From an uncultured Pseudomonadales bacterium (lineage in GTDB: Bacteria > Patescibacteriota > Microgenomatia > UBA1400 > PJMF01): DNA of 64,000 bases. Below the pieces are notes generated by a model. The model saw only the letters and a list, made by a program, of their open reading frames with translations. It was not told the origin of the DNA and made no database searches. The stretch is from the NCBI GenBank assembly GCA_964457085.1, contig CAYWDM010000005.1, forward strand, positions 12,065-76,064. The letters are read 5' to 3'. The translations under genes were made by a program, and so were the position numbers. Below, in pieces: positions 36,459 through 61,111 of the stretch (positions within the stretch are counted from its first letter, which is position 1; every line of letters starts with the position of its first letter).

Positions 36459-36466
36459 ATATTGTT

Positions 36467-36984: not shown

Positions 36985-36987
36985 GGG

Positions 36988-37137: not shown

Positions 37138-37181
37138 AGGCGGAGATTATATCAGCAGTTGAGTTTTTTGAGGAGTCCCTC

Positions 37182-38297: not shown

Positions 38298-38549
38298 ATT
38301 TATGTATATATATACTAGTAATAGTAGTAGTAGAGATGGTGGATAGGTGGATAACAACTTTCTTCACCTCTGGTTTTACGGTCATTTTTTAAATGGAAAA
38401 CTGTCATAGTATCGGGCATATCTCTGTGAATTTAAATGGTTAAAAGTACATAACTTTACAGCTGTCTTCGTAAAAGTGTAGCTTTTATTCACACTTCTTA
38501 GAAAATATCTACAACTTTATTCACATAGTTATCTACTTTTGTGGATAAC
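38298..38549. other. candidate chromosomal replication origin (oriC): DnaA-box cluster plus AT-rich unwinding element in the dnaA-dnaN spacer
   Basis: Perfect box TGTGGATAA (reverse complement of TTATCCACA) at 38540-38548; 1-mismatch boxes at 38346-38354, 38485-38493 and 38517-38525; 2-mismatch boxes at 38338-38346 and 38529-38537; AT-rich run ATTTATGTATATATATACTAGTAATAGTAGTAG at 38298-38335. Confidence 0.75.
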
Positions 38550-40172
38550 TTAGCGAGATATCGCGGTCAAAGACATTCTTAATGCTGATACATCCTGCTT
38601 TATTAACTCATCCTCAGTAATCAGACTTTCAACTTTCGAAATAGCATGAATAACGCTAGTGTGATCTCTGTTAGAGAACCATTTTCCAATTTCTTCAAGC
38701 GACATTTTTAGCTCTTCTCTTAAAAAATACATTGCCACATGTCTTGCGGTAACTAGATCTTTAGTTCTTTTTTTACCTTTAATGGCAATTTGCTTGACTC
38801 TGAAATGATTGGCGACCGTTTTAATTACGTCATCTGGACTTACTCGGATTACTGGACGTTTTTTAACCACCTCGAAACGCAATAAGTCTTCAATGAGTTG
38901 TCCAGATATTGTTCTGTGTTTCAATTCAACCTCAGACTTAATTTGATTGATGATTCCCTCTATTTTTCTAGCACTATCTACTTTTGAAGCTATAATTTGT
39001 GCTAGTTCCATAGGAATATTAATATGATTTGCTTGAGCTTTAATGAGTAGAATCGCAGTTCGTAGTTCAAAAGAAGGTTGTTGGATATCTATCATCAGGC
39101 CAGCTTCAAAACGAGATCTTAATCTGTCTTCGAGTAAATTAATCTCATGAGGCGGCCTATCAGAAGTTAAAATAATTTGAGAGGCCTGTTTAGTTAATGT
39201 ATTAAAAGTATGGAAGAACTCTTCCTGAACAGCATTTTTTCCAGCTATGAACTGAATATCATCGATCATTAGAACTTGGGTATTACGATATTTTGCTTTA
39301 AAACTGAGTGCTTTTCTTGATTGAATAGCACTCACAATTTCATTGGTAAATTCTTCACCGGTGCAATAGATAATATTCGCCTCAGGATTCTTTTGTAAAA
39401 TGTTATGTCCAATTGAGTGCATTAGATGAGTTTTGCCAACACCAACACCTCCATAAAGGAAAAGTGGGTTATATGCACCACCTGGCGTGTTGGAGACTGC
39501 CACTGCAGCGGCATGGGCCATCTCGTTACTAGTTGAGACGGCAAAGGCTTTGAAAGTGTAATCAAGCCGAAGACCAATTTTTCTTGCCTTAAACAGAGCT
39601 CGATCTTCATTAGAGATCTGCATAGTGTGCGCAGAGAATAATTCTGAGACAGTTGGGGAGAGGTTCTGATTGTTCGTATTCGTGGGTGAAAAATTAACAA
39701 AACCGGGTTGGTCAGTTTGTTTTAGTCTAAAACCATCTTGGTCATGATTCTCTTCATTTAAACCGCTAGAACTATCTGGAGTCAGTACACCAAGATTTCT
39801 TGAGTTGGTTGGTGGCAGAGCAGTCTTAAAACTATTACTGCTTTGTACTTCTCCAATTTTGAATTCTAAAGTTATAGGGATCTGTAGAAATTTTTCGAGC
39901 GAGCTTTTTATTTGATTAAGTAGGTTCTTTTTAAGATTTGTAGCATGAAACGCTGTCGGACAAGTAATAATGCATGAGGCTGTTTGGTTATTTTCAGAAA
40001 CCTCAATACTGGTTAAAGGATTCGACAATACCCAAGTACTAAAGACAGCTGGAGTAAGTTGAGTCTGAAGATCAGAACAAACTTGCTGCCACACGTTTTT
40101 AACCTGATCTCCAGGCAAGAACTCAGTCGACATACATTTTTTTATGGCAGGAAATTCTTTATAGACAACCAC
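38550..40172 (-). CDS. dnaA: chromosomal replication initiator protein DnaA
   Basis: AAA+ Walker A GGVGVGKTHLMH, Walker B LMIDDIQF, C-terminal DNA-binding domain (TSVIHAISKV); start could be MSTEFL at 40133. Confidence 0.9.
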   Translation of the reverse strand: MVVYKEFPAIKKCMSTEFLPGDQVKNVWQQVCSDLQTQLTPAVFSTWVLSNPLTSIEVSENNQTASCIITCPTAFHATNLKKNLLNQIKSSLEKFLQIPITLEFKIGEVQSSNSFKTALPPTNSRNLGVLTPDSSSGLNEENHDQDGFRLKQTDQPGFVNFSPTNTNNQNLSPTVSELFSAHTMQISNEDRALFKARKIGLRLDYTFKAFAVSTSNEMAHAAAVAVSNTPGGAYNPLFLYGGVGVGKTHLMHSIGHNILQKNPEANIIYCTGEEFTNEIVSAIQSRKALSFKAKYRNTQVLMIDDIQFIAGKNAVQEEFFHTFNTLTKQASQIILTSDRPPHEINLLEDRLRSRFEAGLMIDIQQPSFELRTAILLIKAQANHINIPMELAQIIASKVDSARKIEGIINQIKSEVELKHRTISGQLIEDLLRFEVVKKRPVIRVSPDDVIKTVANHFRVKQIAIKGKKRTKDLVTARHVAMYFLREELKMSLEEIGKWFSNRDHTSVIHAISKVESLITEDELIKQDVSALRMSLTAISR

Positions 40173-40229
40173 TTATACACATAGTTTCCCACACTACACA
40201 AGTGGCGAAACTACTCAAATCAATTCAAG

Positions 40230-42350
40230 TTATTTATTGGTATCTTGAGGACTTGAATACTGGTCAATGGAATAGTATCCATGCAGCTGAGGTTTTGCGT
40301 CAGCACTTTGGTTTTGTGGTGTCTGCTTTGGGGCATTTGCTTGTGCTTTAGCGATAGCTGCTTGTTTTTGTTGCTCCATTATTTGAGAGTTCTGTTTTAG
40401 CGAATCCATAATCTCTTTACTTGGGACTCGACTTTGAGCTAAAATTCCGGCGTCTTCTTGACTATCAATCTTACGCTGTTGCACGCTTGAATATTGAACA
40501 GCTTTGCCACCTGGATTTTCGAGTTCGGCTTTTTTTAATCTCTCTGCCTCTCGTCTGTTAACAATTTCTTCAGGATTGGTGGTAATCACGTCATGTTCCT
40601 CGTCACTGGCAACCACTCGTAGAGCAACATGGTTTGAACCAGCAAAAAAGATACCCTCTCCAACGTCAGAAGCCATTAATAGTTGTTTCTCTCCATCACT
40701 TAAATAAAAAGTTTCGGCCAATACTGGGACTGAAGAAGATGATTGTTTCATTAAAAATTGAATTGAGGCGTTTGAAACAATTGCTTTGCCATAGTCGTTA
40801 TGCAAAAAATCCTCAACATCTTGAGTAATTGTGGTAATTCCAAGGTAATATTTGCGAGCACGTTTAACCATTGAATGAATAAAAGAGGCACTGTCTTGAT
40901 GCTTCATAAAATACCAGGCCTCATCAACGACTAAAATTCGTCGTCTCAAATCTTTACGCACCTTTGTCCAGATGTAATCAAGTATGATATACATGGCGAT
41001 TGGACGGAGTCCTTCTTCCATTTCTTGAACTGAAAAAACAGTGAATTGGTTGGTGATGTTTAAATTAGAAGCTTGATCAAAAATACCTCTAAATGATCCA
41101 GTAATAAACTTCTCCAATCGAGCTGAAAGGTCATTTGCTTCATCATTCTCCATACCAATTAGGGCTTTATATAAATCTTCCATCAACGGTGGTTTATTTG
41201 ACTGGGTGGCCGGGTCAGGAGTAATTCCTTTAGCTTTATAAGCTGCCACAATCGAGCGATCCAAGATGGCTTCTTGTTGAGAGGTCATCTCGCCAAGCAT
41301 CAGCTTTAATAAGCCATGCAGTGAGATAATTTTTTGACCCAGCTCGTTCTCACCCTCCTCATAGAGATTAGCAAGATCAAAGGGATTAATTCTGGTCTTG
41401 GAGTTAAATGTAAAGTTAATGTATTCTCCCTGTACAGCTTTGGACAAATCCTCATACTCATGCTCTGGATCAAGAACAATGACCTCACAATCAAACATCA
41501 GCTGACGAATCACCTCCAACTTAACTGTGTATGATTTTCCTGCACCAGATTTAGCAAAGATCACCATGTTCGCGTTTTCCATCTTAAATCTATCGAAAAT
41601 CACTAGCGAATCATTATGCTCATTAATTCCGTACACAATGCCGGTTTCCATAGTCAACTCGGATGAAGTGAATGGAAAAGTAGTTGCAAGTGAAGTAGTA
41701 TCCATATTACGCGTAATCATCAGCTTATCTCGTCCCATGGGAAGTGTGGTCTTAAAACCCTCGTCCATCTGCAACGTTGCTTTTTTAGAAACGATCAATA
41801 ATGCTCCGAGCGTGGACTGAACATTTTTTGTAACTCTTTCGAGCTCATCAACACTTGGGGCAATGATAGTAACGTACAAGCCGAATTGATAAAAACGCTC
41901 GGCACCTGCAGCCAGTTGCTCTCGGATTGAACGAGCATCATTTAGCTTAATTTCGGTATTAATGTTACTAATTTTTCCAGAACGAACATCTGACTGAATT
42001 TCTGCCTCCATCTCAGTGATCTTGCGTTTGAGGTTCTCTAGAATTTCACTTGAGTCGGTAGGATAGATAAACATGGCAATGTTTGTCTGATACGGGTAGT
42101 TGATCATTGGCGAAAGCCAGTTTGCTGGAACCGATCGGGGATATCCTGCCACAAAAATAGTTCGAGTATATGTTGAGTTGATCTTTTGAAAAGTAAAATC
42201 AACCTCAATTGCCTCTGGAGCGATAATATCTTGTATAGTTACCAACCCTTGAGAGAACTCTTTAAGTTTTTCATACTCTCGTTGCTCTTTGGATAACTCA
42301 GGAGTAATTGGAGCTGGGGTTTTTGGAAAAAAAGGTAAATTGAATGCCAT
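40230..42350 (-). CDS. virB4: VirB4/TrbE/CagE-family type IV secretion ATPase (Gram-positive TcpF/PrgJ-like form)
   Basis: N-terminal YTRTIFVAGYPRSVPANWL (VirB4 N-domain pattern); Walker A FAKSGAGKSYT; Walker B LVVDEAWYF; stop lies 57 nt upstream of the dnaA start. Confidence 0.8.
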   Translation of the reverse strand: MAFNLPFFPKTPAPITPELSKEQREYEKLKEFSQGLVTIQDIIAPEAIEVDFTFQKINSTYTRTIFVAGYPRSVPANWLSPMINYPYQTNIAMFIYPTDSSEILENLKRKITEMEAEIQSDVRSGKISNINTEIKLNDARSIREQLAAGAERFYQFGLYVTIIAPSVDELERVTKNVQSTLGALLIVSKKATLQMDEGFKTTLPMGRDKLMITRNMDTTSLATTFPFTSSELTMETGIVYGINEHNDSLVIFDRFKMENANMVIFAKSGAGKSYTVKLEVIRQLMFDCEVIVLDPEHEYEDLSKAVQGEYINFTFNSKTRINPFDLANLYEEGENELGQKIISLHGLLKLMLGEMTSQQEAILDRSIVAAYKAKGITPDPATQSNKPPLMEDLYKALIGMENDEANDLSARLEKFITGSFRGIFDQASNLNITNQFTVFSVQEMEEGLRPIAMYIILDYIWTKVRKDLRRRILVVDEAWYFMKHQDSASFIHSMVKRARKYYLGITTITQDVEDFLHNDYGKAIVSNASIQFLMKQSSSSVPVLAETFYLSDGEKQLLMASDVGEGIFFAGSNHVALRVVASDEEHDVITTNPEEIVNRREAERLKKAELENPGGKAVQYSSVQQRKIDSQEDAGILAQSRVPSKEIMDSLKQNSQIMEQQKQAAIAKAQANAPKQTPQNQSADAKPQLHGYYSIDQYSSPQDTNK

Positions 42351-42351
42351 G

Positions 42352-43338
42352 TTATTTAATTTCAGCCACTGGTGGCAGAGTGTATTGTTGAGCTTGATCT
42401 GGAATTGGCTGTTCGACTACCGTAGCTGGGGGAGCACTATTCTCAGCAGTCACTTGAGTTTCTGCAATTTCTACATTTGTGAATGGTGACTGATTGGCTA
42501 AAACTGGGCTCTCTTGAACAATTTCTGAATTAATTAGCTCGGTTGTTGGAGATGAAGACCCCACTGAGTCTGCTGACGTCTCGCTTGTTGGCTGCTCGAC
42601 TACTGGGGCTGTAGTTGACTGAGGGTTTGGGTCGGACAAGCTAGTTTTGAATACGCTTGCTCTAACTAAGGGAGTACTATAGTCGTTTGATTCGACTAAT
42701 TGCTGTCCCTCAGCTGTCTCTGGGTTGTAGTTAGTGTAAAAAATCTGGATTATTTCTTGAGTATTCAGCTGTTTTGCAAACAGACCAATGCGGTTAAATT
42801 GTCCCATCAAATGTGCATTTCTGGGCTCAAGTACTCCAGCAGCTTTCTCAAGAATGACGCTTTTCTCGATGGTTGAAATATCGAAAGCATTTTTTTTGCC
42901 AGCACTAGACATGAATGAAGAAGGGGACATAATGCCCATCTCAATGGGACTGGCGGGAATGATTACATAGAATTTTTTATCCAAGACATTTCGCTCTTGA
43001 ATCAGTTTACTAACAAACTCTTGATATCGACCAATTCTTGCTGCTTTATCTTTGCTACTAGCTTTTTCTTGCTGTTTTTTGAGCAAATCAAGATATTTCG
43101 TAGCGTCTTTAGTTTTTGATTGAATATTAATTTGAATTGGATAGTTCAGTGAATTTAGTAATGCAGCATACGCGTAAATAACTGCGTCCTGTTCCTCTTC
43201 AGCCAACAAACTAAAATTCATTGCATATACTGAAAGAATGGTTGAAACAGAGCCATCTTTCATAATCACCATATTATTAGTGATGTCGTAGATGTCTAGA
43301 AATTCTTGAGTGGTGGAGCTGATGACACGGCCTGACAT
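42352..43338 (-). CDS. T4SS-associated hypothetical protein, translationally coupled to virB4
   Basis: Stop TAA is separated by 1 nt from the virB4 ATG; N-terminus (VIMKDGSVSTILSV...FSLLAEEEQDAVIYAYAALLNSL) weakly resembles the VirB4 N-terminal domain; Ser/Thr/Pro-rich C-terminus. Confidence 0.35.
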   Translation of the reverse strand: MSGRVISSTTQEFLDIYDITNNMVIMKDGSVSTILSVYAMNFSLLAEEEQDAVIYAYAALLNSLNYPIQINIQSKTKDATKYLDLLKKQQEKASSKDKAARIGRYQEFVSKLIQERNVLDKKFYVIIPASPIEMGIMSPSSFMSSAGKKNAFDISTIEKSVILEKAAGVLEPRNAHLMGQFNRIGLFAKQLNTQEIIQIFYTNYNPETAEGQQLVESNDYSTPLVRASVFKTSLSDPNPQSTTAPVVEQPTSETSADSVGSSSPTTELINSEIVQESPVLANQSPFTNVEIAETQVTAENSAPPATVVEQPIPDQAQQYTLPPVAEIK

Positions 43339-43396
43339 GTAGTATCTCTATCTTACAAGACAGATGACCAAACAAGCAAGGATTATGCCTGGCTGG

Positions 43397-44698
43397 TTAT
43401 GCTTGACTTACGATCTGGATGGGATCGATGATATTTCCAGCTAAAATGAGTTGTTGATCTTGAAATACATATCCCTCTTTGTCAGTTGTCAGCACATATT
43501 CCCCATTATCAAGCGGAGTAGTTATAAAGAACTGGCCAAGAGGGTTTGTTTTAACAGCTCGTGCAACTTCTCCTTTTGTGTTTTTTATCTCCACAATCGC
43601 ATTGGAAAGTATTTTTCCTGCTGGGGTAAACACCATGCCAACTACTTTATTTGGAACTGTAGGCTTGGAGGGAAAAGGCAGTTGATCACTGTGAGTAGTA
43701 GCAATTGTTGGTTGAATAAAATCAGTTGAGGTTGCTGAGTCATTCACCATAAAAACAGTTTGATCCGAGCTACTCACTAATTGTGGCTGTGGAATGTTTT
43801 GTTGTGAATCATCGGTGGCTGGCGGTGCCTCAATAGCAGGAGTTTTCTCTGGTTCTTCAGCAACACGCTCACTTTTTGTGGAAGTTTCTTCTAAAACGGG
43901 AATTTTAATTTGGTTTGCCACGTCTGCTGGGTTTGAAACAATTGTTTTAGCCATTTGTGGTGGAGGAGTAACTGGCGATCTATCAGTGAAATCTGTTGTA
44001 GTCACAATCTCTACTTCTGAAGTAACCTCTTGTTCTTGGCTAGCAACCTCTAGGGTTGATGTAGATTCCGCTGAAAGTTGGGTGGGAACGATGTCTTCAG
44101 GTTGTAAAGTTGCAGTCGTCGTCGTGATGACCTCATGCAGCTCTCTAACTCTAACCTGTAAATTAGGTTTCTGGATTGATTGAATAGCTGAAATGCTGCC
44201 AACAGTGATTGAACCAAACTCACTCAGAATTGATTGTGACCGCTTATGTTGCTCTTGCTCCCAGGGGTCAATTAATTGAGTCTGATGTACGGAAGTAAAA
44301 TATTCTTGAATTCTTTCACGACGAGCTGGCGATAGATCCACATCTTCTGGTGTTAATATGTTTCCAGTCTCAAGCTTATATAGAAAGGGCTCGGGAATTT
44401 TTACTTGTTTTCTCCAGAAAAATTGGGTGGGTCTATATAAAATATTAAAAAAGGTGCTAAACCAATGACCAAGGGGGCGTTCCTCAATGGGTACAAACGC
44501 AATGGCAACTCCCATACCACCGCTGAGCAAGATAAGTGGCCATTTAACGATTGGGATCAGGTTTGTTTTGTAGATAACTACGGCGATTACCACACCAACT
44601 GCAACCTCAGTAAATTGCTGCAGGGTCATGTTTCCAACGATGTGAAACCGATATCCAGTGACGTCTTGTGGAATGGCGTGCTCTCGCATGACATTCAT
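43397..44698 (-). CDS. PrgI/VirB3-like membrane protein with long low-complexity C-terminal extension
   Basis: N-terminal IPQDVTGYRFHIVGNMTLQQFTEVAVGVVIAVVIY followed by a second TM helix (PrgI-family pattern), then about 300 aa of Thr/Ser/Glu/Pro-rich sequence and a C-terminal beta-rich domain. Confidence 0.5.
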   Translation of the reverse strand: MNVMREHAIPQDVTGYRFHIVGNMTLQQFTEVAVGVVIAVVIYKTNLIPIVKWPLILLSGGMGVAIAFVPIEERPLGHWFSTFFNILYRPTQFFWRKQVKIPEPFLYKLETGNILTPEDVDLSPARRERIQEYFTSVHQTQLIDPWEQEQHKRSQSILSEFGSITVGSISAIQSIQKPNLQVRVRELHEVITTTTATLQPEDIVPTQLSAESTSTLEVASQEQEVTSEVEIVTTTDFTDRSPVTPPPQMAKTIVSNPADVANQIKIPVLEETSTKSERVAEEPEKTPAIEAPPATDDSQQNIPQPQLVSSSDQTVFMVNDSATSTDFIQPTIATTHSDQLPFPSKPTVPNKVVGMVFTPAGKILSNAIVEIKNTKGEVARAVKTNPLGQFFITTPLDNGEYVLTTDKEGYVFQDQQLILAGNIIDPIQIVSQA

Positions 44699-44740
44699 TT
44701 TACACTGCTTCAGAGATGAAAATCGAGCCTATAAATCAGC

Positions 44741-45787
44741 TTACTGCTGTGGTCCAGTAACTACAACAGCCGGGGTGATTATCTCAACCGATACTTCTCC
44801 GCCATTGTTGGTAATGACTGTGCCAGAGAATCGATACACAGGGAATGCGGAACCAGTTTCAATATCAGTCCGATATTCTGATGTCGCCTTGGTTAATTTT
44901 CCAGAAGTGATGGTTGCCAAATCAAGCTGGTTGATAGAGTTTTGGTATGCAGCAATTATTGAACCTTGTCCCGCTAAAATATTGGCAACAGCTTGCTGTG
45001 CAGTAATGGTTGCAACCTGTTTAACGATATTTGTTTCAATTATTTGCTGTTGGATTGTAAGTTTAACTATCTCATTGTCAGCATTTAACATCACTCGAAT
45101 TGGAGCATATTCATCATAATTATTGATTACTGGGAGATTGGCAACCTGAGGAGCAAATGGAATCTCAATAATAGTGGCATTTTTCTCAATGGTTTCATCT
45201 AGATCAGTTTTGTCTTTACGTAGGAATTTTAACTGGCCTTTGACTGGTATGTAGGGGCTTTGGGGGAGTAGGGTTTGAATAAATTGTGTTGCTGTATTCA
45301 CCGCCACTTCTGTTTGAATGGTTTTTCCAACAAATCGTTTGCTCTCTGCCATCGCTGCAGATTCACTAGCTTGTTCCTGAATAGAGAGCTGGTTGTTAAA
45401 AATATACTCATTCCGGTTTTTGTCATGAAATAATGAATAATTATCTCGAACCCAAATGTTCTCTGAGCGAGGGTGTTGGACAAGTTGGTATTGCTCAATC
45501 ATTTGTTGAGCAATTTGGCTAACAATGGTTGGATTCAGTTTAATTCCTGCGATCGGCAGTTTTTCTGGTAGATCAAGCTCAGGTCCGTTATAAGTCAGCT
45601 TTTTAAACTCACTTTTCGTTTGGTTAAAGTTGGTCGACATGAACTCCGATGGGCTGAGGCCTGCATTTCGATTTGGGGTTAGAGAATAAAATATTAAGCT
45701 GAGTCCCGTCGAAAGCAACGCGAAAACTAATAGTCCAATTAGTAATTTTTTATTAGTTATTTGAACAGGCAGGTGGTTCTTTGTCAT
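44741..45787 (-). CDS. bitopic membrane protein (VirB8/TcpC-like position), unknown
   Basis: Single N-terminal TM anchor (LLIGLLVFALLSTGLSLIFYSL) plus about 300-aa extracytoplasmic domain; located between the hydrolase and the PrgI-like gene. Confidence 0.3.
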   Translation of the reverse strand: MTKNHLPVQITNKKLLIGLLVFALLSTGLSLIFYSLTPNRNAGLSPSEFMSTNFNQTKSEFKKLTYNGPELDLPEKLPIAGIKLNPTIVSQIAQQMIEQYQLVQHPRSENIWVRDNYSLFHDKNRNEYIFNNQLSIQEQASESAAMAESKRFVGKTIQTEVAVNTATQFIQTLLPQSPYIPVKGQLKFLRKDKTDLDETIEKNATIIEIPFAPQVANLPVINNYDEYAPIRVMLNADNEIVKLTIQQQIIETNIVKQVATITAQQAVANILAGQGSIIAAYQNSINQLDLATITSGKLTKATSEYRTDIETGSAFPVYRFSGTVITNNGGEVSVEIITPAVVVTGPQQ

Positions 45788-48700
45788 AGCAACTGGTTAC
45801 ATTAGCTTTATACTCGTCTGGAACAGTAATTGGTTTGATACATTCATCTGAAGGCGGCACGATAGAGGCTAACTCTGAAGGTGGGCCAGCTCTAAAAAAC
45901 GCACCATTTCTAGCTATTTCATAATGTAGATGAGAGCCACTTGAGTTTCCGGTATTGCCCATCAATCCAATTACTTCACCAGCATCAACTTCTTTACAAC
46001 CATTCACATACGTTTCTGAAAAGTGACAAAACAAGAACGAGCCTTCAGCAGATTGAAGCGTTAAGTGGTTCCCACAGCCCGAATCGATATTTGCCTTACA
46101 AAGTGTGCCTGGAAATGGTGCATAGACTGGTGTTCCTTGAGGGGCGGCAATATCAAAGGCATCCATTCTCCCATGCGAATAACTGCCAAATGGAGCTTGC
46201 GAGACCACTCCTGTTGTCGGCCAACAGCCAGCTGTCATTGAGCAGTCGCCAATACAAAAACTCTTGCCCGTCATTACGTTGTCATTTCCTTCACTAGTGG
46301 CATTTTTCCAATAGAATATTGCTTCAAAAGTGTTGGTAATCTGTGAATGATTATATGAAGAATCGAATTCCTCTTCATAAGTCAAAGTGAGCGAGCTACC
46401 CGTGCACACTGTATTAGCCGGATTGGTTAAGTCGGTGCTGAGAGGTGGAACAAAATCTTCTAGATGTTTTTCTTTATCTGGTTTGGTGGGAACTGGTCTG
46501 CCGAGCTCCTCATATTTTTTCTTGCTATAGCGAGTTTTAATGATGTCGTTGATTTCGGTGATGGTAATGCAAGTACCGACTCCAGTTGGGGTAATGGTGA
46601 TGGTGTAGGTAACCTTTTGTGTGCCAGAGGTGATTTCAGGGCATTTGTCGTCAAGACAGCCAGTATCGATGGTTTTTGTGAGTGAAGCATAATCGGAGAG
46701 CTTTTCATCTGGGTCACTGGCATTAGTTTGATTTGATGGAAAGTCAGCTAATAGAGCAGCAGTAAAGGCACCATTTGTTATCATCACTGAGGCAACCATA
46801 CCGATGGCTGTGCCTGCAACTGCTTGGGTGGCTGTCGCCACCATGCCTGTACTAATTCCTGTTGCTGCGGTAGCGGTGGTAGTCGTAGCCGCAGCCGTTG
46901 AGGTGGCGGTTGCTGCGTGTGTGGGGCTGACCAGTGAGGGGAGAAAAGAATTGCCAGCTATGCCTGGAGTAGCTGCTGACGACATAGTTGTACTAGCAGT
47001 GCCTCCGAATGTGTTGCTCAGTGAGTTGGAGATAGTGCCTGCATGTTGAGTAAGCCAACCAACTCCAGTACCAACGGCCGCACCAACTCCAGTTCCAATT
47101 ACTGCACCGATTGGACCACCAACGATGAATCCAGTCACTCCACCTATTAATGCACCTGTGGCAGTAAAGGCGGGCATGATCACATTGCCCCAAAGTGCGG
47201 CCATGATCAAGCCACCAGCTGCTAATCCAGCACCGACATATTTGATAGTTTTACCAATTGCATCTTGAACGTCTGCTGGCAAAGCACCGACAGCTGCTCC
47301 AAGTCCCGGCATTCCTAGGGCAGCTCCAGCCAGGGCAGCTGAACCTTTTGCAATTGTTTTATCAAAGGCTTTTTCTAGATTCTTGTTTGCTGTTTTGGCA
47401 ACCGTTTTCCCAGCTTGATTGGCTGCACGCTTGGCAGCTCGTTTTCCAGCACCACCTGCACTACGAGCAATGGCTTTCTTTGCAGCATTGCTGGCGTCAC
47501 CAATCTGGCCAGTTGCTTGTACAGCATCAGCTACTACGCCACTTTTTCCTGCCATACGACGTCGCAGTGAGGCAAGTGGACTTAGGCCTGTGTCAACTGA
47601 ATCAAAAGCGGAGCTATATTCATCAAAAGTCAGATGTCGGCCATTGATGCCATTTTGAGCCATCACTATTTGAGCCTCGCCAACGTCACCCAGACAGAAG
47701 TTGGGTGGGATGTGTCCGCTTTGTAGTAGACGCTGAATCTCATCAGCCTCGTACTGGTTTTGATAGTAGTGCTCGTAAATAGCGATCTGTTCTTGTAACT
47801 TGAGTGACCGCCAAATCTCTTGATTATAGATATCTAACTTCAGCTTTTTGATATAAATGTTCTCGGTTGTTGATGCATTCTTTGGATTTTTGGTGTCATC
47901 ACCAACACCGGTACCGGCAGCAATTACATGGTCGCGGGCATATCCACCGTTGCTACCAGCTGAGGAAATAATGTTTTTAACTGGCTGAACATGTTTTTTA
48001 TCAAATTCTTCTTTGGTTGTTTTTTTTAATTCGTCTCTATCAGCTGGATTAACGCCATACTGGCCATATTCAAGTTTTGCTCCACCCGTAATGTATTCGT
48101 GTCGCCGCAGGTGCCAATAAATGGTAAGCACCCCTTTAAATTCTTTGAATTCGTCTGGGGTTAGTGAGGTATTGAAAATTTGATTAAATTGGTCGGTGCT
48201 GAGAATATCTAGGAATGCTGGCTGTTTGCCGTTAGCAGTGAGTGCATCAATTCGTTCGGTAATTCCATGCACCTGCATGCTTAAATTACCGCTATCAAAA
48301 TATGCAAGCGAATCGCATGCTTCGAGCAGAGCCGATTGCGAGTCACCACCTGCAAACGCTAGATCCGGTCTGACTCCAAAAATGGGATTATTGATGACAT
48401 CATTACTAAACTCAGCCATGTCTGAGTCACTGTTTTTAGCACCCTCAAGTTTTTTGTGTAAAGCTAACAGTGCGGTACGGTCACCTTTACTTTTAAGTTC
48501 TCTATACGCAGACTCAACCGCACTACTGAGTGCGGGGGAGAAACGAGGGTCGCTGTATAGGCCAATTCTAAAATCACTGAGAATTTGTAAACGGAGCCCT
48601 GGGTTGGCATATAAATCTCCCAATCCCTCCATTCCAACTCGCTCAATCACTCTCTTTTCAACATTAAATCTAACTACATCGTGCAACTCTTGTCGTAATA

Positions 48701-49535
48701 TCTCGATTGGAATGCCACTTTTATTCGCGAGGCCAACCAAAAAAGCATTAGTAATACGCTCAGACTCTAAACCAAGAGTGCGAATACTCTCAAAATTTTG
48801 TCTGACACTACGTTCCTGAGGTACTGGTTGAGTTTGTTGTTGATATTGTGTTTGTTCCTGGTCGTTGCTGCCCTCCTCACCACCATGGGCTTCTGTCTCA
48901 ACTGGTTGACTACCTCTGGGAACCTCTGAATCGACTGGGGCAATAAATGCTTCTCCGCGATCATCAGCAAGATCTAGTTGTAGTTCTTTGAGTGCTTCAG
49001 GATCTTCATTAAGTTCTCGTGCTACTTCAATTGCAACCTCGATATATGTCTCAAGTCGCTCTCTGAGTTCTCTATAATGTCCTTGACGATATTCAAGTAA
49101 AAACTCTTCTTGGCCGATGGTGATTAACTCTCTGGTTGCTTGAAACCTGATATGGGTAAAAAGGTCATTTTCAGCGGCAATTAATTTTCCAACTTTTGAA
49201 CCAGCTTCAGAATCAACATTGGCTTTTGAAAGTTGTTCGCCATCAAAGATGAGCTTGGCATGAATTTCATCTATGAGCTTGAAGATGTCTCCAATATAGA
49301 GATATCTTTCACGTTCAGTTTCACTACGATGCTGTCTAATTGCTAACGGCCATTGTTTGGGAGCTGCTTGAGGAAAATCTAAAGTTGGTACAAAAATTTG
49401 CTCTGGAGGTTCGTCTGGAGGCAGTATTTCGCTAACAAAAATTGTGGCATTTAAATCCGACAGGAACCGAACAATTTCTGAGTACGTAGCTCGCTCACCC
49501 AATCGCTTGAGGGTATGTGTCCCCGGTTCAACCAT
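45753..49535 (-). CDS. large membrane-anchored protein with C-terminal M23 (LytM) peptidase domain; PrgK/VirB1-like T4SS cell-wall hydrolase candidate
   Basis: M23 motifs HGRMD (HxxxD) and GLMGNTGNSSGSHLHYE (HxH); central Gly/Ala-rich multi-helix glycine-zipper block; Ala/Thr-rich linker; about 700-aa N-terminal cytoplasmic region. Confidence 0.7.
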   Translation of the reverse strand: MVEPGTHTLKRLGERATYSEIVRFLSDLNATIFVSEILPPDEPPEQIFVPTLDFPQAAPKQWPLAIRQHRSETERERYLYIGDIFKLIDEIHAKLIFDGEQLSKANVDSEAGSKVGKLIAAENDLFTHIRFQATRELITIGQEEFLLEYRQGHYRELRERLETYIEVAIEVARELNEDPEALKELQLDLADDRGEAFIAPVDSEVPRGSQPVETEAHGGEEGSNDQEQTQYQQQTQPVPQERSVRQNFESIRTLGLESERITNAFLVGLANKSGIPIEILRQELHDVVRFNVEKRVIERVGMEGLGDLYANPGLRLQILSDFRIGLYSDPRFSPALSSAVESAYRELKSKGDRTALLALHKKLEGAKNSDSDMAEFSNDVINNPIFGVRPDLAFAGGDSQSALLEACDSLAYFDSGNLSMQVHGITERIDALTANGKQPAFLDILSTDQFNQIFNTSLTPDEFKEFKGVLTIYWHLRRHEYITGGAKLEYGQYGVNPADRDELKKTTKEEFDKKHVQPVKNIISSAGSNGGYARDHVIAAGTGVGDDTKNPKNASTTENIYIKKLKLDIYNQEIWRSLKLQEQIAIYEHYYQNQYEADEIQRLLQSGHIPPNFCLGDVGEAQIVMAQNGINGRHLTFDEYSSAFDSVDTGLSPLASLRRRMAGKSGVVADAVQATGQIGDASNAAKKAIARSAGGAGKRAAKRAANQAGKTVAKTANKNLEKAFDKTIAKGSAALAGAALGMPGLGAAVGALPADVQDAIGKTIKYVGAGLAAGGLIMAALWGNVIMPAFTATGALIGGVTGFIVGGPIGAVIGTGVGAAVGTGVGWLTQHAGTISNSLSNTFGGTASTTMSSAATPGIAGNSFLPSLVSPTHAATATSTAAATTTTATAATGISTGMVATATQAVAGTAIGMVASVMITNGAFTAALLADFPSNQTNASDPDEKLSDYASLTKTIDTGCLDDKCPEITSGTQKVTYTITITPTGVGTCITITEINDIIKTRYSKKKYEELGRPVPTKPDKEKHLEDFVPPLSTDLTNPANTVCTGSSLTLTYEEEFDSSYNHSQITNTFEAIFYWKNATSEGNDNVMTGKSFCIGDCSMTAGCWPTTGVVSQAPFGSYSHGRMDAFDIAAPQGTPVYAPFPGTLCKANIDSGCGNHLTLQSAEGSFLFCHFSETYVNGCKEVDAGEVIGLMGNTGNSSGSHLHYEIARNGAFFRAGPPSELASIVPPSDECIKPITVPDEYKANVTSCYDKEPPACSNN

Positions 49536-49565
49536 ATTTTTTCATTATACCTGGAATCAACCCTC

Positions 49566-51383
49566 TCATACAAATGATGCAATGAAATTGCCTACCGACA
49601 CTGTTTGAGGTTTTGCAACGGGAAGTTCTTTTCGAGATGTACTCTCAGCATTTGCTGTTTTTTTATGTTTTCCAGATGAATCAACATCAGGTATTATTTG
49701 CTCTCCAGAGCTTTCAAGTTCGCATTTTAAACACAACCCACACTCTCCAACCCACATATCGTTTCCTTTACAACCAATACAGGTACTATGCTCCTGCCAT
49801 TTAATTGCTCTACCTTCACCAATTACTGCTGCGATATCTGATCGCGATAACGAGCCACCTCCTTGTAGGGTAAGACTATTAAACAGTTTTGCAGCACCAA
49901 AACCATTAATCGTACCAACTGAAACGCATTCTAGCAGTGAAGTATCAATCGATTTAATTGCCGCAGAAAAATTAAATACGTTGGCTGCTGTGCGAGAAAA
50001 AACCTCCTCGCTTTGATGGGCATGCTGATGATATAAGGCAAGTAGCTCTGGTAGTTGTGATCCACTCAGTTGTTCTTTGCTTAAAATTCCCGCAAGCACA
50101 ATTCTTTTGAGAAATAAACTGAGTTTGGTGACATCTGTTTCTCTGAGAGTTTTCTCATTAAACTCTTTTTGTAGTAACTCGATGACCAGTTTCGCATACC
50201 ATTCAATTGAACTATCCATTGAACTGAGCTGTTGTTTTTTCCACCATTCTTTCAGCCGCATCAAAGGACTTTGTTTGATAGCAATTCGATCAAAAACCAC
50301 TCTAGCCGGCTGTGTTTGCCACTCGTCTAGAGTCATCACTTGACTCATTATGTACTTTTCTGTGGTTTTAATTTCAGTTTCAGATAACTGCCGTTTTTTG
50401 ACAATTTGGCGTATGTTTTCTGGAATACTGCTACCTAATTTCTCCAAAACCTCCAAGTGGTCATGCCAGTGTGCTGCATAAAAACATTGGTCATGTAACA
50501 ACACCAATCGATTAATGCTGGGAATGAAGACTGGTTGTGTGACAACCAGCACACTCATATTTCCCTTGTGAATTTCAGATTGAGGCATTAAATATGCGAT
50601 TTTTTTACCCGCATAACAAGGCAAGTCGTGTGCTGGAAGTTCTAGTTTGCGAGCAGCTTCTACAGAAATGAGATTGTCTGCTGGTTTCCAACCAAATGCC
50701 GTATACACTTCTTGAGCACTGGGCCGCTGTGTGTCGACAGCCTCGACAATTGCATTTATGAGAGCATGGGGTGGCTGACCAGTAGTTAACAAAACACCCA
50801 GTTTTTCTATTAATGCGACAATTTGTTGGTGCTCAAGTTCAAAACGTCTTTTTTCCGCAGTTTCAGTCACACTAGTAATTGCGGTTCGACAAACCTCTTC
50901 AACATCCGGCCTCATTTGGTATATGTCATCATGCAGTTTGATTTCGCCGGTTTGTTTGAGGGAAATCGAGTACCCCAACGAGGTGTAGGGAGAAAACAAG
51001 CTTTCAGACAAGATTGCTCTGAAGTAGTACTGCAGTAATTTTTCTTGAGCACTTCTAGAGTGCAGCGGTACGACCTCACGAAGCAAAAAGTTAATGATCA
51101 TCACCAATCGATCGTTATTGTGGGGAATTTGTTGTACTTCTGCGTTTTTAGTGAGCTCAGGAGCAGATGAGTCTGGCATGGCCTCAGTGGCACCAATTGT
51201 CCCAGCCGGAGTCATCTCATGTCTATTCTTTGTCGGAATCGTGTCTGGTGGGGGAAGGAGAGGTGTTTGATGCGGTTTGGATTCAGCAACTTGAGTTTGT
51301 GCTAGATAGGCAGACAACCAGATGAGTATGGGACTAACTTCACTGTGGGAGGCAATGGCAGTTGCTTGTTGTTCAGCAGACAT
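49566..51383 (-). CDS. hypothetical protein with C-terminal Cys-rich zinc-finger
   Basis: 605 aa; C-terminal CIGCKGNDMWVGECGLCLKCE; internal AAHWHDHLEV stretch (HUH-like, see findings); no TM. Confidence 0.35.
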   Translation of the reverse strand: MSAEQQATAIASHSEVSPILIWLSAYLAQTQVAESKPHQTPLLPPPDTIPTKNRHEMTPAGTIGATEAMPDSSAPELTKNAEVQQIPHNNDRLVMIINFLLREVVPLHSRSAQEKLLQYYFRAILSESLFSPYTSLGYSISLKQTGEIKLHDDIYQMRPDVEEVCRTAITSVTETAEKRRFELEHQQIVALIEKLGVLLTTGQPPHALINAIVEAVDTQRPSAQEVYTAFGWKPADNLISVEAARKLELPAHDLPCYAGKKIAYLMPQSEIHKGNMSVLVVTQPVFIPSINRLVLLHDQCFYAAHWHDHLEVLEKLGSSIPENIRQIVKKRQLSETEIKTTEKYIMSQVMTLDEWQTQPARVVFDRIAIKQSPLMRLKEWWKKQQLSSMDSSIEWYAKLVIELLQKEFNEKTLRETDVTKLSLFLKRIVLAGILSKEQLSGSQLPELLALYHQHAHQSEEVFSRTAANVFNFSAAIKSIDTSLLECVSVGTINGFGAAKLFNSLTLQGGGSLSRSDIAAVIGEGRAIKWQEHSTCIGCKGNDMWVGECGLCLKCELESSGEQIIPDVDSSGKHKKTANAESTSRKELPVAKPQTVSVGNFIASFV

Positions 51384-51696
51384 CTTGCGTCCTGCGTAGT
51401 GAGCAGAAGCGCGTGCTGGCTGTATCCAAAAAAGATGGAGAGTTTGGTATGTCGATGCTCGTCATGATATATAGTCAAACTCGTATCGGACTTTCCTGAA
51501 TCTTTGCTATATTGCCAGATTCAGTTTACCGTTGCGGCACAGTCCCTGAATTACACAGGGTTCCGAGATTGCTCGTTGCAGTATAGTTTGATTTGTTGAC
51601 TGACACAAGCAATGACAGTTACATATTTGAAGAAGTTTGCATGCTGACACTTGGCTTCATTAGCTTCAATTCCCAGAGGTTTAATGATAAAATACC

Positions 51697-60759: not shown

Positions 60760-61110
60760 TTAATACCCTAAGATATCAATTCCAAAGACTTGTTCCACTA
60801 TTTGAGCAATCCAGTACGAAGCGAATAACAATATAAAGCCAACAAGTGCTGCGGTGACACGTTGCTTGCCGGAGTCAACTGATTTTTTTCCTGCCGCACC
60901 AATCATCATTTCGGCTCCACCAGCAACCAACATTACAAAGAGAATCATTCCCGCGATTGGGAATAAGTAGGCAAGTAAGCGATTTATGATGCCCTCTGGA
61001 GTAGAAAGTTCGACTGTAGCAGTCGAATTAGCAAGTTTGAGTGGATTGAGTTCGTCCAATGTTTGTTTGGTAACTTTTTCAAATCCAGAAAGACTAGCGA
61101 GTAGTGACAT
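60760..61110 (-). CDS. T4SS pilin-like protein, paralog 8
   Basis: MIGAAGKKSVDSGKQRVTAALVGFILLFASYWIAQIV matches the pilin family motif; preferred start MSLLASL (61110) abuts the upstream gene stop. Confidence 0.55.
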   Translation of the reverse strand: MSLLASLSGFEKVTKQTLDELNPLKLANSTATVELSTPEGIINRLLAYLFPIAGMILFVMLVAGGAEMMIGAAGKKSVDSGKQRVTAALVGFILLFASYWIAQIVEQVFGIDILGY

Positions 61111-61111
61111 A

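What the first reader, a model, noticed from the sequence alone, without database searches (positions are those of the whole stretch)
40230..49535. Chromosomal type IV secretion-like operon directly abutting dnaA and oriC
Five co-directional, tightly packed genes (M23 peptidase membrane protein, a bitopic protein, a PrgI/VirB3-like protein, a translationally coupled unknown, VirB4) end 57 nt upstream of the dnaA start codon. Monoderm-type T4SS cores (VirB4 + VirB3-like + cell-wall hydrolase + VirB8-like) are normally found on plasmids or ICEs. Here the set sits beside the replication origin among essential genes, which suggests a domesticated, host-encoded apparatus for pilus assembly, attachment or DNA exchange rather than a mobile element. 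Several components have non-standard architectures (see separate findings).
Basis: partly seen in the sequence, partly recalled or inferred. Interest (0 to 1): 0.8.

Follow-up and report, generated by a model that had tools for sequence, protein, structure and literature searches.

The report
Patescibacteria chromosomal T4SS beside dnaA
This is the chromosomal, non-conjugative type IV secretion system that ultrasmall Patescibacteria (CPR) carry next to their replication-initiator gene dnaA; it is real and strongly conserved, but it was described in print in 2025.

Summary
Five tightly packed minus-strand genes (40230-49535) encode an M23 peptidase membrane protein, a bitopic protein, a PrgI/VirB3-like protein, a TrsD-like protein and a VirB4 ATPase, and they end just upstream of dnaA. 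Four details need correcting:
- The "unknown" gene is a TrsD-like detached VirB4 N-terminal domain.
- The operon has at least six genes. More T4SS parts lie upstream: a divergent VirB6-like protein and VirB2-like pilins, out to about 62.3 kb.
- dnaA probably starts at ATG 40133, which makes the spacer 96 nt rather than 57.
- The main DnaA-box and AT-rich cluster, the likely oriC, lies between dnaA and dnaN.

In 80 species-level Patescibacteria genomes the order M23-bitopic-PrgI-TrsD-VirB4-dnaA-dnaN-yidC-jag-rnhA is colinear. dnaA follows virB4 in 73 of 73 loci long enough to tell. VirB4 (median 73% identity) is better conserved than DnaA (55%). I found no integrase, relaxase, tRNA or att-like repeat, so this is not an ICE remnant.

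The "VirB8-like" label for the bitopic protein is not established. Its confident model resembles YycI/YycH/PepSY-type ectodomains more than VirB8.

The system and its dnaA proximity are published (PMC12102498; essential in a Saccharibacterium, PMC10633639). Its function is still unknown.

The parts
40230..42350 (-). VirB4-type ATPase (706 aa). It lacks the usual N-terminal domain and has a roughly 115-aa Q/A/K/S-rich tail that ends in a conserved YSIDxY.PP-like motif.
   Evidence: NCBIfam CD1110 family, 376 bits against a cut-off of 325, covering model positions 176-733 of 752. Pfam P-loop_TraG, AAA_10, DUF87 and a weak CagE_TrbE_VirB hit. PDB 4AG5 at E 1.6e-43. More than 8000 Patescibacteria homologues at roughly 70-88% identity. 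Tail motif.
42352..43338 (-). TrsD/TraD-like protein, the detached N-terminal domain of VirB4 (residues about 11-132), followed by an S/P/V/T-rich tail. Its stop codon lies 1 nt before the virB4 start.
   Evidence: NCBIfam: VirB4_plasma model positions 104-238 of 894 (E 2.7e-8), TrsD (E 5e-7), and CD1110 positions 17-118 of 752. These are complementary to the span covered by the 706-aa protein. Present upstream of virB4 in 70 of 71 eligible loci, median 59% identity.
43397..44698 (-). PrgI/VirB3-like membrane protein with two TM helices, a T/S/Q/P-rich linker and a C-terminal transthyretin-like beta-sandwich (CarboxypepD_reg).
   Evidence: PrgI 20.7-24.6 bits in the window protein, and 59 of 59 orthologue N-termini hit PF12666. 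CarboxypepD_reg scores 34 bits on the isolated C-terminus and is found in 53 of 53 orthologues. TM helices at 24-42 and 48-66. Present in 64 of 64 eligible loci.
44741..45787 (-). Bitopic protein (348 aa) with an N-terminal TM helix and an ectodomain of tandem alpha+beta modules. It is a candidate scaffold or VirB8 analogue, but it is not a demonstrated VirB8 homologue.
45753..49535 (-). 1260-aa membrane protein. It has a large N-terminal region with no signal peptide, an Ala/Gly-rich TM cluster (about residues 770-930), and a C-terminal M23 metallopeptidase at residues 1126-1212 (nt 45900-46160). It is the likely cell-wall-opening enzyme, the functional VirB1/PrgK equivalent.
   Evidence: Peptidase_M23 71.8 bits. 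HxxxD (HGRMD) and HxH (HLH) motifs in the translation. TM prediction. Detected by tblastn in 37 of 54 eligible loci, mostly through the C-terminal part, median 32% identity.
49566..51383 (-). 605-aa protein of unknown function. It is probably the first gene of the operon, 30 nt upstream of the M23 gene, and is preceded by a 313-nt divergent intergenic region (51384-51696).
   Evidence: Coordinates. No family hits. Found upstream of the M23 gene in 6 related loci and absent from L082.
40134..40229 (-). virB4-dnaA spacer. It carries a -35-like CTTG (40199-40202) and two tandem DnaA-box-like sites, TGTGGGAAA (40185-40193) and TGTGTATAA (40173-40181). It is probably a DnaA-regulated dnaA promoter, or the upstream half of a bipartite origin.
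   Evidence: Sequence and box match. All 74 spacers from relatives carry a DnaA-box-like site: GTGTATAA in 69, TGTGTATA in 64 and TGTGGAAA in 46, with a shared layout CCCTTGC-N4-5-TGTGGAAAAC-N2-TGTGTATAA. Median spacer length is 115 nt.
38550..40133 (-). dnaA. The ORF is open back to GTG 40172, but the probable start is ATG 40133.
   Evidence: Bac_DnaA 218 bits, Bac_DnaA_C and DnaA_N. A 527-aa gene call on the contig that carries the identical VirB4.
38241..38549 (.). Candidate oriC core in the dnaA-dnaN intergenic region: four DnaA boxes (38346-38354, 38485-38493, 38517-38525, and a perfect one at 38540-38548) next to the most AT-rich 80-100 nt of the region (38241-38340).
   Evidence: DnaA-box density in relatives is 9.1 per kb here, against 3.8 per kb in the virB4-dnaA region and 0.48 per kb background. 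The cumulative GC-skew trough spans 36-42 kb.
55278..56987 (-). Polytopic membrane protein (569 aa, signal peptide plus about 6 TM helices). It is a divergent VirB6-like channel candidate and lies outside the reported interval.
   Evidence: TM prediction. Of 60 orthologues, 5 weakly hit Pfam TrbL or TrbL_5, and one homologue carries a precomputed PF04610. The AF2 model has pLDDT 74. Six of the top eight Foldseek PDB hits are TrwI/VirB6 chains of the R388 T4SS, at E 0.008-0.45, probability 0.89-1.0 and low TM-score. The neighbourhood is conserved in L082.
60760..61155 (-). VirB2-like T4SS pilin (two TM helices).
   Evidence: PF18895 T4SS_pilin, 31.9 bits against a cut-off of 26.6. TM helices at 60-78 and 102-120. 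A pilin gene occupies the same position in L082.
61112..62302 (-). 396-aa secreted protein whose C-terminus looks like a pilin (two TM helices at 319-337 and 367-385). It may be a pilin with an N-terminal extension.
   Evidence: Weak NCBIfam hit to the Mbov_0395 pilin-like conjugal transfer protein at residues 317-383, E 8.7e-4 and below the cut-off. TM prediction.
7442..9838 (-). Divergent T4CP/VirD4-like ATPase (798 aa), about 30 kb from virB4. Its link to this T4SS is unproven.
   Evidence: Pfam TrwB_AAD_bind 35.7 bits and DUF87. NCBIfam VirD4-like CD1115 at 39 bits and SXT_TraD at 47 bits, both far below their cut-offs.

Best explanation
This is the lineage-wide, vertically inherited Patescibacteria (CPR/Minisyncoccota) type IV secretion system, in the arrangement typical of Pacebacteria/Woesebacteria-type (Microgenomatia-like) genomes. 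It derives from the monoderm MPF-FATA conjugation machinery and has been repurposed.

Shown here:
- An operon of at least six genes encodes a split VirB4 motor (a TrsD-like N-domain plus an ATPase with intact Walker motifs), a PrgI/VirB3-like membrane anchor fused to an extracellular beta-sandwich, a bitopic ectodomain protein, and a large membrane protein ending in an intact M23 endopeptidase.
- A divergent VirB6-like polytopic protein and VirB2-like pilins lie 5-20 kb upstream.
- The whole block is fixed next to dnaA-dnaN across many species.
- The locus has no relaxase, integrase or coupling protein.

Inferred:
- The M23 enzyme opens the peptidoglycan locally.
- PrgI, TrsD and VirB4, together with the VirB6-like protein and the bitopic protein, form the membrane translocon.
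- VirB4 powers assembly of a VirB2-type pilus or tube that contacts the host cell.
- The tube moves macromolecules between the epibiont and its host. This could be protein effectors going out, or host nucleic acids and building blocks coming in. It is not conjugative DNA export.

dnaA keeps its own DnaA-box-controlled promoter in the short spacer. The origin-proximal position probably reflects long-frozen synteny, with a possible gene-dosage benefit.
For: - Component identities.
- Split VirB4: two adjacent ORFs cover complementary parts of full-length VirB4 models.
- Synteny: dnaA directly follows virB4 on the same strand in 73 of 73 loci with enough flank. TrsD is present in 70 of 71 and PrgI in 64 of 64. 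The extended locus with pilins and the VirB6-like gene is conserved in L082.
- Purifying selection: median identity is 73% for VirB4, against 55% for DnaA, 56% for YidC and 44% for DnaN.
- No mobile-element hallmarks.
- Composition is not anomalous.
- Literature: the Patescibacteria T4SS forms its own VirB4 clade related to MPF-FATA, carries TrsD, PrgI and VirB2 arrays, lacks relaxases and lies near dnaA/dnaN (PMC12102498). The T4SS genes are essential for epibiotic growth of Southlakia epibionticum and lack a coupling protein and relaxase (PMC10633639). Tubular structures that may be T4SS pili were seen at a parasite-host interface (bioRxiv 10.64898/2026.06.21.733656).
Against: - The substrate and its direction of transport are unknown. 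The literature calls the role 'completely unknown' (PMC11665869).
- No organism of this particular lineage has been cultured, so essentiality is extrapolated from Saccharimonadia.
- The VirB6 assignment is weak (low TM-scores, 5 of 60 Pfam hits), and the VirB8 equivalence of the bitopic protein is unproven.
- A T4CP-like ATPase exists elsewhere in the window, so a DNA-handling role cannot be excluded.
- Operon structure and promoters are inferred from spacing only. The consensus promoter and terminator scans were at chance level.
Confidence: 0.85

Rival explanations
1. The block is a decayed integrative conjugative element or plasmid insertion that happened to land next to dnaA in this genome.
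For: VirB4 belongs to the CD1110/MPF-FATA type that is otherwise typical of ICEs and plasmids of monoderms. Several proteins carry low-complexity tails or have no family hits, as decaying genes sometimes do.
Against: The gene order and the dnaA junction are the same in 80 different species-level genomes. VirB4 is more conserved than DnaA. All ORFs are intact, with catalytic motifs present. No integrase, relaxase, tRNA or att-like direct repeat was found. GC content is unremarkable.
Confidence: 0.02
2. It is a nucleic-acid import machine, comparable to ComB of Helicobacter or Ced of Crenarchaeota. In this reading it pulls host DNA or RNA into a cell that cannot make nucleotides.
For: VirB4 and the distant T4CP-like ATPase give weak hits to CedB and CedD. 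The relaxase and oriT machinery needed for export is absent. The literature proposes the T4SS as a candidate nucleotide-acquisition route, because ComEC is dispensable in S. epibionticum (PMC11665869). An RNA-feeding parasite has a monophyletic VirB4 and tube-like structures.
Against: The Ced hits are generic ATPase-domain similarity, far below the cut-offs (52 bits against 700). No nuclease or DNA-binding component was found in the operon. There is no experimental evidence for import in any Patescibacterium.
Confidence: 0.3
3. It is an effector-export or adhesion apparatus. The VirB2-like pilus attaches to the host, and the channel delivers proteins that remodel or permeabilise the host envelope.
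For: VirB2-like pilin genes lie in the extended locus. Several large secreted or surface proteins of unknown function are interleaved, namely the 901-aa, 396-aa and 1153-aa proteins. Wang et al. suggest protein export because the coupling protein and relaxase are missing (PMC10633639).
Against: No effector or secretion signal has been identified. T4SS effector export normally needs a T4CP, which is not in the locus. Type IV pili already provide adhesion in Saccharibacteria.
Confidence: 0.35
4. It is a functional conjugation system that mobilises the chromosome from the adjacent origin region, in an Hfr-like manner.
For: The VirB4-type machinery has a conjugative ancestry. A T4CP-like ATPase lies 30 kb away. 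An ATP-dependent DNA ligase and recF are nearby.
Against: No relaxase was detected in the 64 kb. Relaxases are rare across Patescibacteria genomes that carry this T4SS (PMC12102498). The coupling protein was non-essential in S. epibionticum while the T4SS was essential.
Confidence: 0.05

Closest known systems
Patescibacteria-clade T4SS (Quinonero-Coronel et al. 2025, PMC12102498; S. epibionticum SEML1_0006-0019, Wang et al. 2023, PMC10633639)
   Same: It shares an MPF-FATA-type VirB4, an adjacent TrsD-like gene, PrgI/VirB3, nearby VirB2-like pilins, and an M23-type hydrolase in place of the canonical VirB1. It also has no relaxase, no T4CP in the locus, and a chromosomal position beside dnaA/dnaN.
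   Different: - Here PrgI is always two genes from virB4 (64 of 64 loci). The paper found VirB3 homologues of Microgenomatia mostly not associated with virB4.
- The paper found VirB6 scarce in Microgenomatia. A very divergent VirB6-like candidate is present here.
- The bitopic YycI/PepSY-like protein, the PrgI-beta-sandwich fusion, the VirB4 C-terminal motif and the conserved DnaA-box pair in the virB4-dnaA spacer are details I did not find in the parts of that paper I read.
Monoderm conjugative T4SS, MPF-FATA class (pGO1/pSK41 TrsD-TrsE, pCF10 Prg, pIP501 Tra, CTn2 CD1110)
   Same: VirB4 scores above the CD1110 equivalog cut-off. The TrsD plus VirB4 split matches pGO1. There is a PrgI-type VirB3. 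A membrane-anchored multidomain peptidoglycan hydrolase with an M23/LytM-type domain is present, as in PrgK (from my own knowledge of PrgK, not tested here). There are no outer-membrane core components.
   Different: There is no relaxase, no adjacent coupling protein, no integrase or replicon, and no PrgB-type adhesin. It has VirB2-like pilins, which Gram-positive systems lack. It is fixed in the chromosome at the origin and vertically inherited.
VirB8/TcpC/PrgL/TraM family of bitopic NTF2-like T4SS scaffold proteins
Bacillus-type bipartite oriC flanking dnaA
   Same: DnaA-box clusters occur both upstream (virB4-dnaA spacer) and downstream (dnaA-dnaN intergenic region) of dnaA. An AT-rich stretch adjoins the downstream cluster, and a GC-skew trough spans the region.
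   Different: The upstream cluster is only a conserved pair of boxes within about 100 nt, so it may be nothing more than a dnaA autoregulation operator. rpmH-rnpA-yidC-jag lie downstream of dnaN on the same strand rather than diverging upstream of dnaA.

Membership tests
Patescibacteria-clade chromosomal T4SS | VirB4 ATPase of the MPF-FATA type whose nearest relatives are from Patescibacteria | tested here: met
   CD1110 family at 376 bits against a cut-off of 325. All named top hits and 80 genome loci are Patescibacteria, Pacebacteria or Woesebacteria MAGs. No formal phylogeny was run.
Patescibacteria-clade chromosomal T4SS | TrsD-like gene (VirB4 N-terminal homologue) associated with virB4 | tested here: met
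   NCBIfam TrsD at E 5e-7 and VirB4 N-terminal model regions. The gene lies 1 nt upstream of virB4 and is present in 70 of 71 loci.
Patescibacteria-clade chromosomal T4SS | VirB3/PrgI-like membrane protein | tested here: met
   59 of 59 orthologous N-termini hit PF12666, best E 1.9e-10. The window copy scores 24.6 bits, just under the gathering score.
Patescibacteria-clade chromosomal T4SS | VirB6-like polytopic channel protein | tested here: inconclusive
   For the 569-aa protein at 55278-56987, 5 of 60 orthologues hit TrbL or TrbL_5 weakly. The top Foldseek PDB hits are R388 TrwI/VirB6, but E is only 0.008-0.45 and TM-scores are 0.2-0.4. No hit by sequence profile against PDB.
Patescibacteria-clade chromosomal T4SS | VirB2-like pilin gene(s) near virB4 | tested here: met
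   PF18895 at 31.9 bits against a cut-off of 26.6 for 60760-61155. There is a second, weak pilin-like C-terminus in 61112-62302. Both lie about 18-20 kb upstream of virB4, and the arrangement is conserved in L082.
Patescibacteria-clade chromosomal T4SS | No relaxase and no coupling protein in the cluster | tested here: met
   No relaxase or T4CP family hit for any ORF from 40 to 63 kb. A divergent T4CP-like ATPase lies 30 kb away. ORFs under about 200 aa in the 1-30 kb region were not all scanned.
Patescibacteria-clade chromosomal T4SS | Conserved chromosomal location next to dnaA/dnaN | tested here: met
   73 of 73 loci with at least 1 kb of flank have dnaA next on the same strand, with a median spacer of about 115 nt.
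Patescibacteria-clade chromosomal T4SS | Required for epibiotic growth | not testable with these tools
   Shown only for S. epibionticum by Tn-seq (PMC10633639). It is inferred here from the strong sequence conservation.
Conjugative element (ICE/plasmid) with MPF-FATA T4SS | Relaxase plus T4CP encoded with the T4SS | tested here: not met
   None found in the locus or elsewhere among the scanned ORFs of the window.
Conjugative element (ICE/plasmid) with MPF-FATA T4SS | Integrase, att repeats or a tRNA target, and variable presence among relatives | tested here: not met
   No integrase and no tRNA. Only chance-level short imperfect repeats. The position is invariant in 80 genomes.
VirB8 / TcpC / PrgL family (for the 348-aa bitopic protein) | N-terminal TM anchor with an extracytoplasmic domain | tested here: met
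   Single TM helix at residues 15-33. The AF2 model has helix 13-36 followed by a globular ectodomain.
VirB8 / TcpC / PrgL family (for the 348-aa bitopic protein) | NTF2-like VirB8 fold or a sequence-profile match | tested here: inconclusive
M23 (LytM-type) peptidoglycan endopeptidase (for the 1260-aa protein) | M23 domain with HxxxD and HxH zinc-binding motifs | tested here: met
   PF01551 at 71.8 bits. HGRMD and HLH are present in the translation. Enzymatic activity was not tested.

The most novel reading that the evidence does not exclude
The invariant virB4-dnaA junction may be functional rather than frozen synteny. Transcription reading out of the T4SS operon, together with the conserved tandem DnaA boxes that sit 37-57 nt after the virB4 stop codon, could couple expression of the host-contact and uptake apparatus to DnaA activity. 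Replication initiation in these nucleotide-auxotrophic epibionts would then be gated by T4SS-dependent access to host material, or the reverse.
Probability: 0.12. Interest if true: 0.65.

Novelty: already known. Interest (0 to 1): 0.3.

Why it matters
Patescibacteria make up a large share of bacterial diversity. They cannot make nucleotides, lipids or most amino acids, and how they extract these from host cells is an open question. This T4SS is the leading candidate machine. It was essential in the one species tested, and in this lineage it is conserved more tightly than DnaA itself.

The finding does not reveal a new system. The system and its placement near dnaA were published in 2025.

The window does give a clean, complete example of the Pacebacteria/Woesebacteria-type arrangement. 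It also adds testable details:
- a candidate for the VirB6 that the 2025 survey found scarce in Microgenomatia;
- a conserved bitopic protein family with a YycI/PepSY-like fold in the position where VirB8 would be expected;
- a conserved fusion of PrgI to a beta-sandwich domain;
- a conserved C-terminal motif on VirB4;
- a conserved DnaA-box pair in the virB4-dnaA spacer.

Tried and rejected
- ICE or plasmid remnant. Rejected on synteny in 80 genomes and the absence of integrase, relaxase, tRNA and att repeats.
- dnaA starting at GTG 40172 with a 57-nt gap. Rejected as the likely start, because GTG abuts the conserved DnaA box and the contig carrying the identical VirB4 has dnaA called from the ATG.
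- oriC in the virB4-dnaA spacer. Only partly supported. The stronger DnaA-box and AT-rich cluster is between dnaA and dnaN.
- Promoter and terminator consensus scans over 38-52 kb gave counts at or below shuffled expectation, so they say nothing about operon boundaries.
- Rfam found no RNA family in the window and ARAGORN found no tRNA.
- A word-indexed homologue search for the bitopic protein found only 3 proteins. The exhaustive HMM search was needed to find more.
- Sequence-profile searches of the bitopic and VirB6-like families against PDB sequences gave only noise. So did phmmer of the 901-aa protein.
- Foldseek of the bitopic model against PDB gave no meaningful hit.
- No Pfam or NCBIfam hits were found for the 605-, 1153-, 275- and 901-aa proteins. 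Their roles remain open.

Full report
**What is in the sequence**

The interval 40230-49535 holds five long minus-strand ORFs of 1260, 348, 433, 328 and 706 aa. Their junctions are a 35-nt overlap, then gaps of 42 nt, 58 nt and 1 nt. Downstream on the same strand come dnaA, dnaN, rnpA, yidC, jag, rnhA, a DUF4012 protein and ribosomal protein L25.

A sixth co-directional ORF (49566-51383, 605 aa) ends 30 nt before the 1260-aa gene. It is preceded by a 313-nt divergent intergenic region, so the operon probably starts there.

**Identity of the components**

- **VirB4.** The 706-aa protein scores 376 bits against the NCBIfam CD1110 family (cut-off 325). It also matches Pfam P-loop_TraG, AAA_10 and DUF87. 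Its closest solved relative is the VirB4 C-terminal domain 4AG5 at E 1.6e-43. Walker A and B motifs are intact.
- **TrsD-like protein.** The VirB4 protein aligns only to positions 176-733 of the 752-position CD1110 model. The 328-aa "unknown" just upstream aligns to positions 17-118 of the same model, to positions 104-238 of 894 of a second full-length VirB4 model, and to TrsD/TraD. It is therefore the detached N-terminal domain of VirB4, as in the staphylococcal pGO1-type systems.
- **PrgI/VirB3-like protein.** The 433-aa protein matches PrgI only weakly by itself. All 59 orthologous N-termini I extracted hit PF12666, best E 1.9e-10. All 53 orthologous C-termini hit the CarboxypepD_reg beta-sandwich. 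This is a conserved fusion of PrgI, a linker and a beta-sandwich.
- **M23 protein.** The 1260-aa protein ends in an M23 peptidase domain (71.8 bits) with its zinc-binding motifs intact. It has no signal peptide. A large N-terminal part precedes an Ala/Gly-rich transmembrane cluster.

**The bitopic protein**

The 348-aa protein has no family hit. It belongs to a sizeable family of 475 representatives at 50% identity.

An AlphaFold2 model built with 70 sequences is confident, with pLDDT 93. It shows one transmembrane helix followed by tandem alpha+beta modules.

The protein may be a functional analogue with a different fold type.

**More T4SS parts outside the reported interval**

- The gene at 60760-61155 is a T4SS pilin, PF18895 above its cut-off.
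- The gene at 61112-62302 ends in a pilin-like two-helix segment, on a weak NCBIfam hit.
- The 569-aa polytopic protein at 55278-56987 is a divergent VirB6 candidate. Five of 60 orthologues hit TrbL or TrbL_5, and one homologue carries a precomputed PF04610. Six of the top eight Foldseek hits of its model in the whole PDB are TrwI/VirB6 chains of the R388 T4SS, although the scores are weak.
- A related genome (L082) keeps the same extended order: pilin, large secreted protein, reverse-strand gene, VirB6-like, reverse-strand 1152-aa gene, M23, bitopic, PrgI.
- A divergent T4CP-like ATPase lies 30 kb away at 7442-9838.

**Is it a mobile element?**

No. A scan of one genome per species found 80 loci, all in Patescibacteria-type MAGs. 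tblastn of the window's proteins shows the same colinear, same-strand order in every locus as far as its DNA extends: M23, bitopic, PrgI, TrsD, VirB4, dnaA, dnaN, yidC, jag, rnhA, DUF4012 and L25.

| Gene | Present / eligible loci |
|---|---|
| dnaA directly after virB4 | 73 / 73 |
| TrsD-like | 70 / 71 |
| PrgI-like | 64 / 64 |
| Bitopic (fast-evolving) | 40 / 61 by tblastn |
| M23 (fast-evolving) | 37 / 54 by tblastn |

Median identity to the window protein is 73% for VirB4, 55% for DnaA, 56% for YidC and 44% for DnaN. VirB4 is therefore under stronger constraint than the core replication genes beside it.

The window has no integrase, relaxase or tRNA, and no att-like repeats. Its composition is not anomalous.

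**Relation to dnaA and the origin**

The 57-nt gap assumes a GTG start. The ATG at 40133 is more likely, giving a 96-nt spacer. This matches the gene call on a contig that carries the identical VirB4.

The spacer is short across relatives, with a median of 115 nt, and 73 of 75 fall between 40 and 293 nt. Every one of 74 usable spacers contains a DnaA-box-like site. They share the layout CCCTTGC-N4-5-TGTGGAAAAC-N2-TGTGTATAA. In the window this is CTTG at 40199-40202, TGTGGGAAA at 40185-40193 and TGTGTATAA at 40173-40181.

This looks like a DnaA-controlled dnaA promoter inside the spacer. That makes a promoter within the virB4 coding region unnecessary, although read-through from the operon is not excluded. 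No terminator was detected, but the scan has little power.

The densest DnaA-box cluster, with the window's only perfect box, and the most AT-rich segment lie between dnaA and dnaN at 38241-38549. In relatives the box density there is 9.1 per kb, against 3.8 per kb around the virB4-dnaA spacer and 0.48 per kb background. The cumulative GC-skew trough spans about 36-42 kb.

The operon therefore abuts dnaA and sits within about 2 kb of the likely oriC, rather than directly against it.

**What is already known**

Quinonero-Coronel et al. 2025 (PMC12102498) surveyed T4SS across Patescibacteria. They report:
- a distinct VirB4 clade related to MPF-FATA;
- abundant TrsD and PrgI homologues, and VirB2-like pilin arrays;
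- M23-containing hydrolases;
- rarity of relaxases, with T4CP genes usually far from virB4;
- proximity of the cluster to dnaA, dnaN, rnpA and rpmH in Paceibacteria, Microgenomatia and other classes, which they interpret as possible gene-dosage enhancement.

Wang et al. 2023 (PMC10633639) showed by Tn-seq that the T4SS genes SEML1_0006-0019 are essential for epibiotic growth of a Saccharibacterium. They noted the pilins and the missing coupling protein and relaxase. Reviews call the function unknown and mention effector delivery or nucleic-acid uptake as possibilities (PMC11665869; PMC12857230). A 2026 preprint reports tube-like structures at a parasite-host interface that may be T4SS pili.

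**Most likely mechanism**

Shown here: the gene content, the intact catalytic motifs, the topology predictions, the fixed chromosomal position and the strong conservation.

Inferred: the M23 domain cuts peptidoglycan locally. PrgI anchors the TrsD-VirB4 motor at the membrane. The VirB6-like and bitopic proteins complete the translocon. VirB4 drives assembly of a VirB2-type pilus that reaches the host cell. The substrate is not conjugative DNA.

Whether the machine exports effectors or imports host macromolecules cannot be decided from sequence. I give the two options roughly equal weight.

**Increments beyond the literature**

These are modest and need confirmation:
- the VirB6 candidate for this lineage;
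- the bitopic family with a YycI/PepSY-like fold;
- the conserved PrgI-beta-sandwich fusion;
- the conserved C-terminal (Y)[ST]I[DEN]xY.PP motif of VirB4, which follows a variable low-complexity linker;
- the conserved DnaA-box pair in the virB4-dnaA spacer;
- VirB4 being more conserved than DnaA.

Noticed in passing
window 40173-40202 (minus strand); spacers of L002-L081: Between virB4 and dnaA there is a conserved motif, CCCTTGC-N4-5-TGTGGAAAAC-N2-TGTGTATAA, which is a -35-like element plus two tandem DnaA-box-like sites. A DnaA-box-like site is present in all 74 spacers examined. The motif is probably a dnaA autoregulation operator or promoter.
   Followed up: partly
window 40230-40300 (VirB4 C-terminus); A1 and loci L002-L081: VirB4 ends with a variable Q/A/K/S-rich linker followed by a conserved short motif, (Y)[ST]I[DEN]xY.PP. 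In the window it reads GYYSIDQYSSP. A strict pattern matched 48 of 79 orthologues and visibly related variants occur in most others. It may be a docking motif.
   Followed up: partly
window 40230-42350 compared with 38550-40172 and 37182-38357, across L002-L081: VirB4 (median 73% identity) is clearly more conserved across species than DnaA (55%), YidC (56%), RNase H (49%) or DnaN (44%) encoded right beside it.
   Followed up: yes
window 7442-9838 (-): A 798-aa ATPase carries TrwB_AAD_bind and DUF87 domains and gives weak VirD4-like (CD1115) and TraD hits. It is a divergent T4CP-like protein about 30 kb from virB4, flanked by small ORFs with no family hits.
   Followed up: partly
window 43397-44698 (-): The PrgI/VirB3-like protein is fused, through a roughly 200-aa T/S/Q/P-rich linker, to a C-terminal CarboxypepD_reg (transthyretin-like) beta-sandwich. 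The fusion is conserved in 53 of 53 orthologues. This architecture is unusual for a VirB3.
   Followed up: yes
window 36000-51400: If oriC is the dnaA-dnaN intergenic region, then dnaA and the whole T4SS operon lie on the right replichore but are transcribed toward the origin, head-on to the replication fork. Meanwhile rnpA-yidC-jag follow dnaN on the same strand instead of diverging from dnaA as in Bacillus.
   Followed up: no
window 51697-55158 (+), 57133-57960 (+), 57997-60702 (-), 49566-51383 (-): Four sizeable proteins of 1153, 275, 901 and 605 aa are interleaved with the T4SS genes and have no Pfam, NCBIfam or PDB-sequence hits. Homologues of the 1153-aa gene, and a reverse-strand 316-aa gene at the position of the 275-aa gene, keep their places in related genomes (L044-L046, L075, L082). 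They may be lineage-specific T4SS parts or substrates.
   Followed up: partly
window 16820-18661 (-), 18699-19787 (-), 21193-22296 (-): An ATP-dependent (archaeal/eukaryotic-type) DNA ligase, a Fic-domain protein and recF lie in the origin-proximal region to the left of the T4SS-dnaA block.
   Followed up: no
L056 (CP011212.1): A complete 853-kb genome deposited as 'candidate division TM6 bacterium GW2011_GWF2_28_16' carries the same Patescibacteria-type T4SS-dnaA block with VirB4 at 70% identity. Many other loci are labelled 'uncultured Pseudomonadales', 'Limisphaerales' or 'Vitreimonas'. These record names look like taxonomic mislabels.
   Followed up: no
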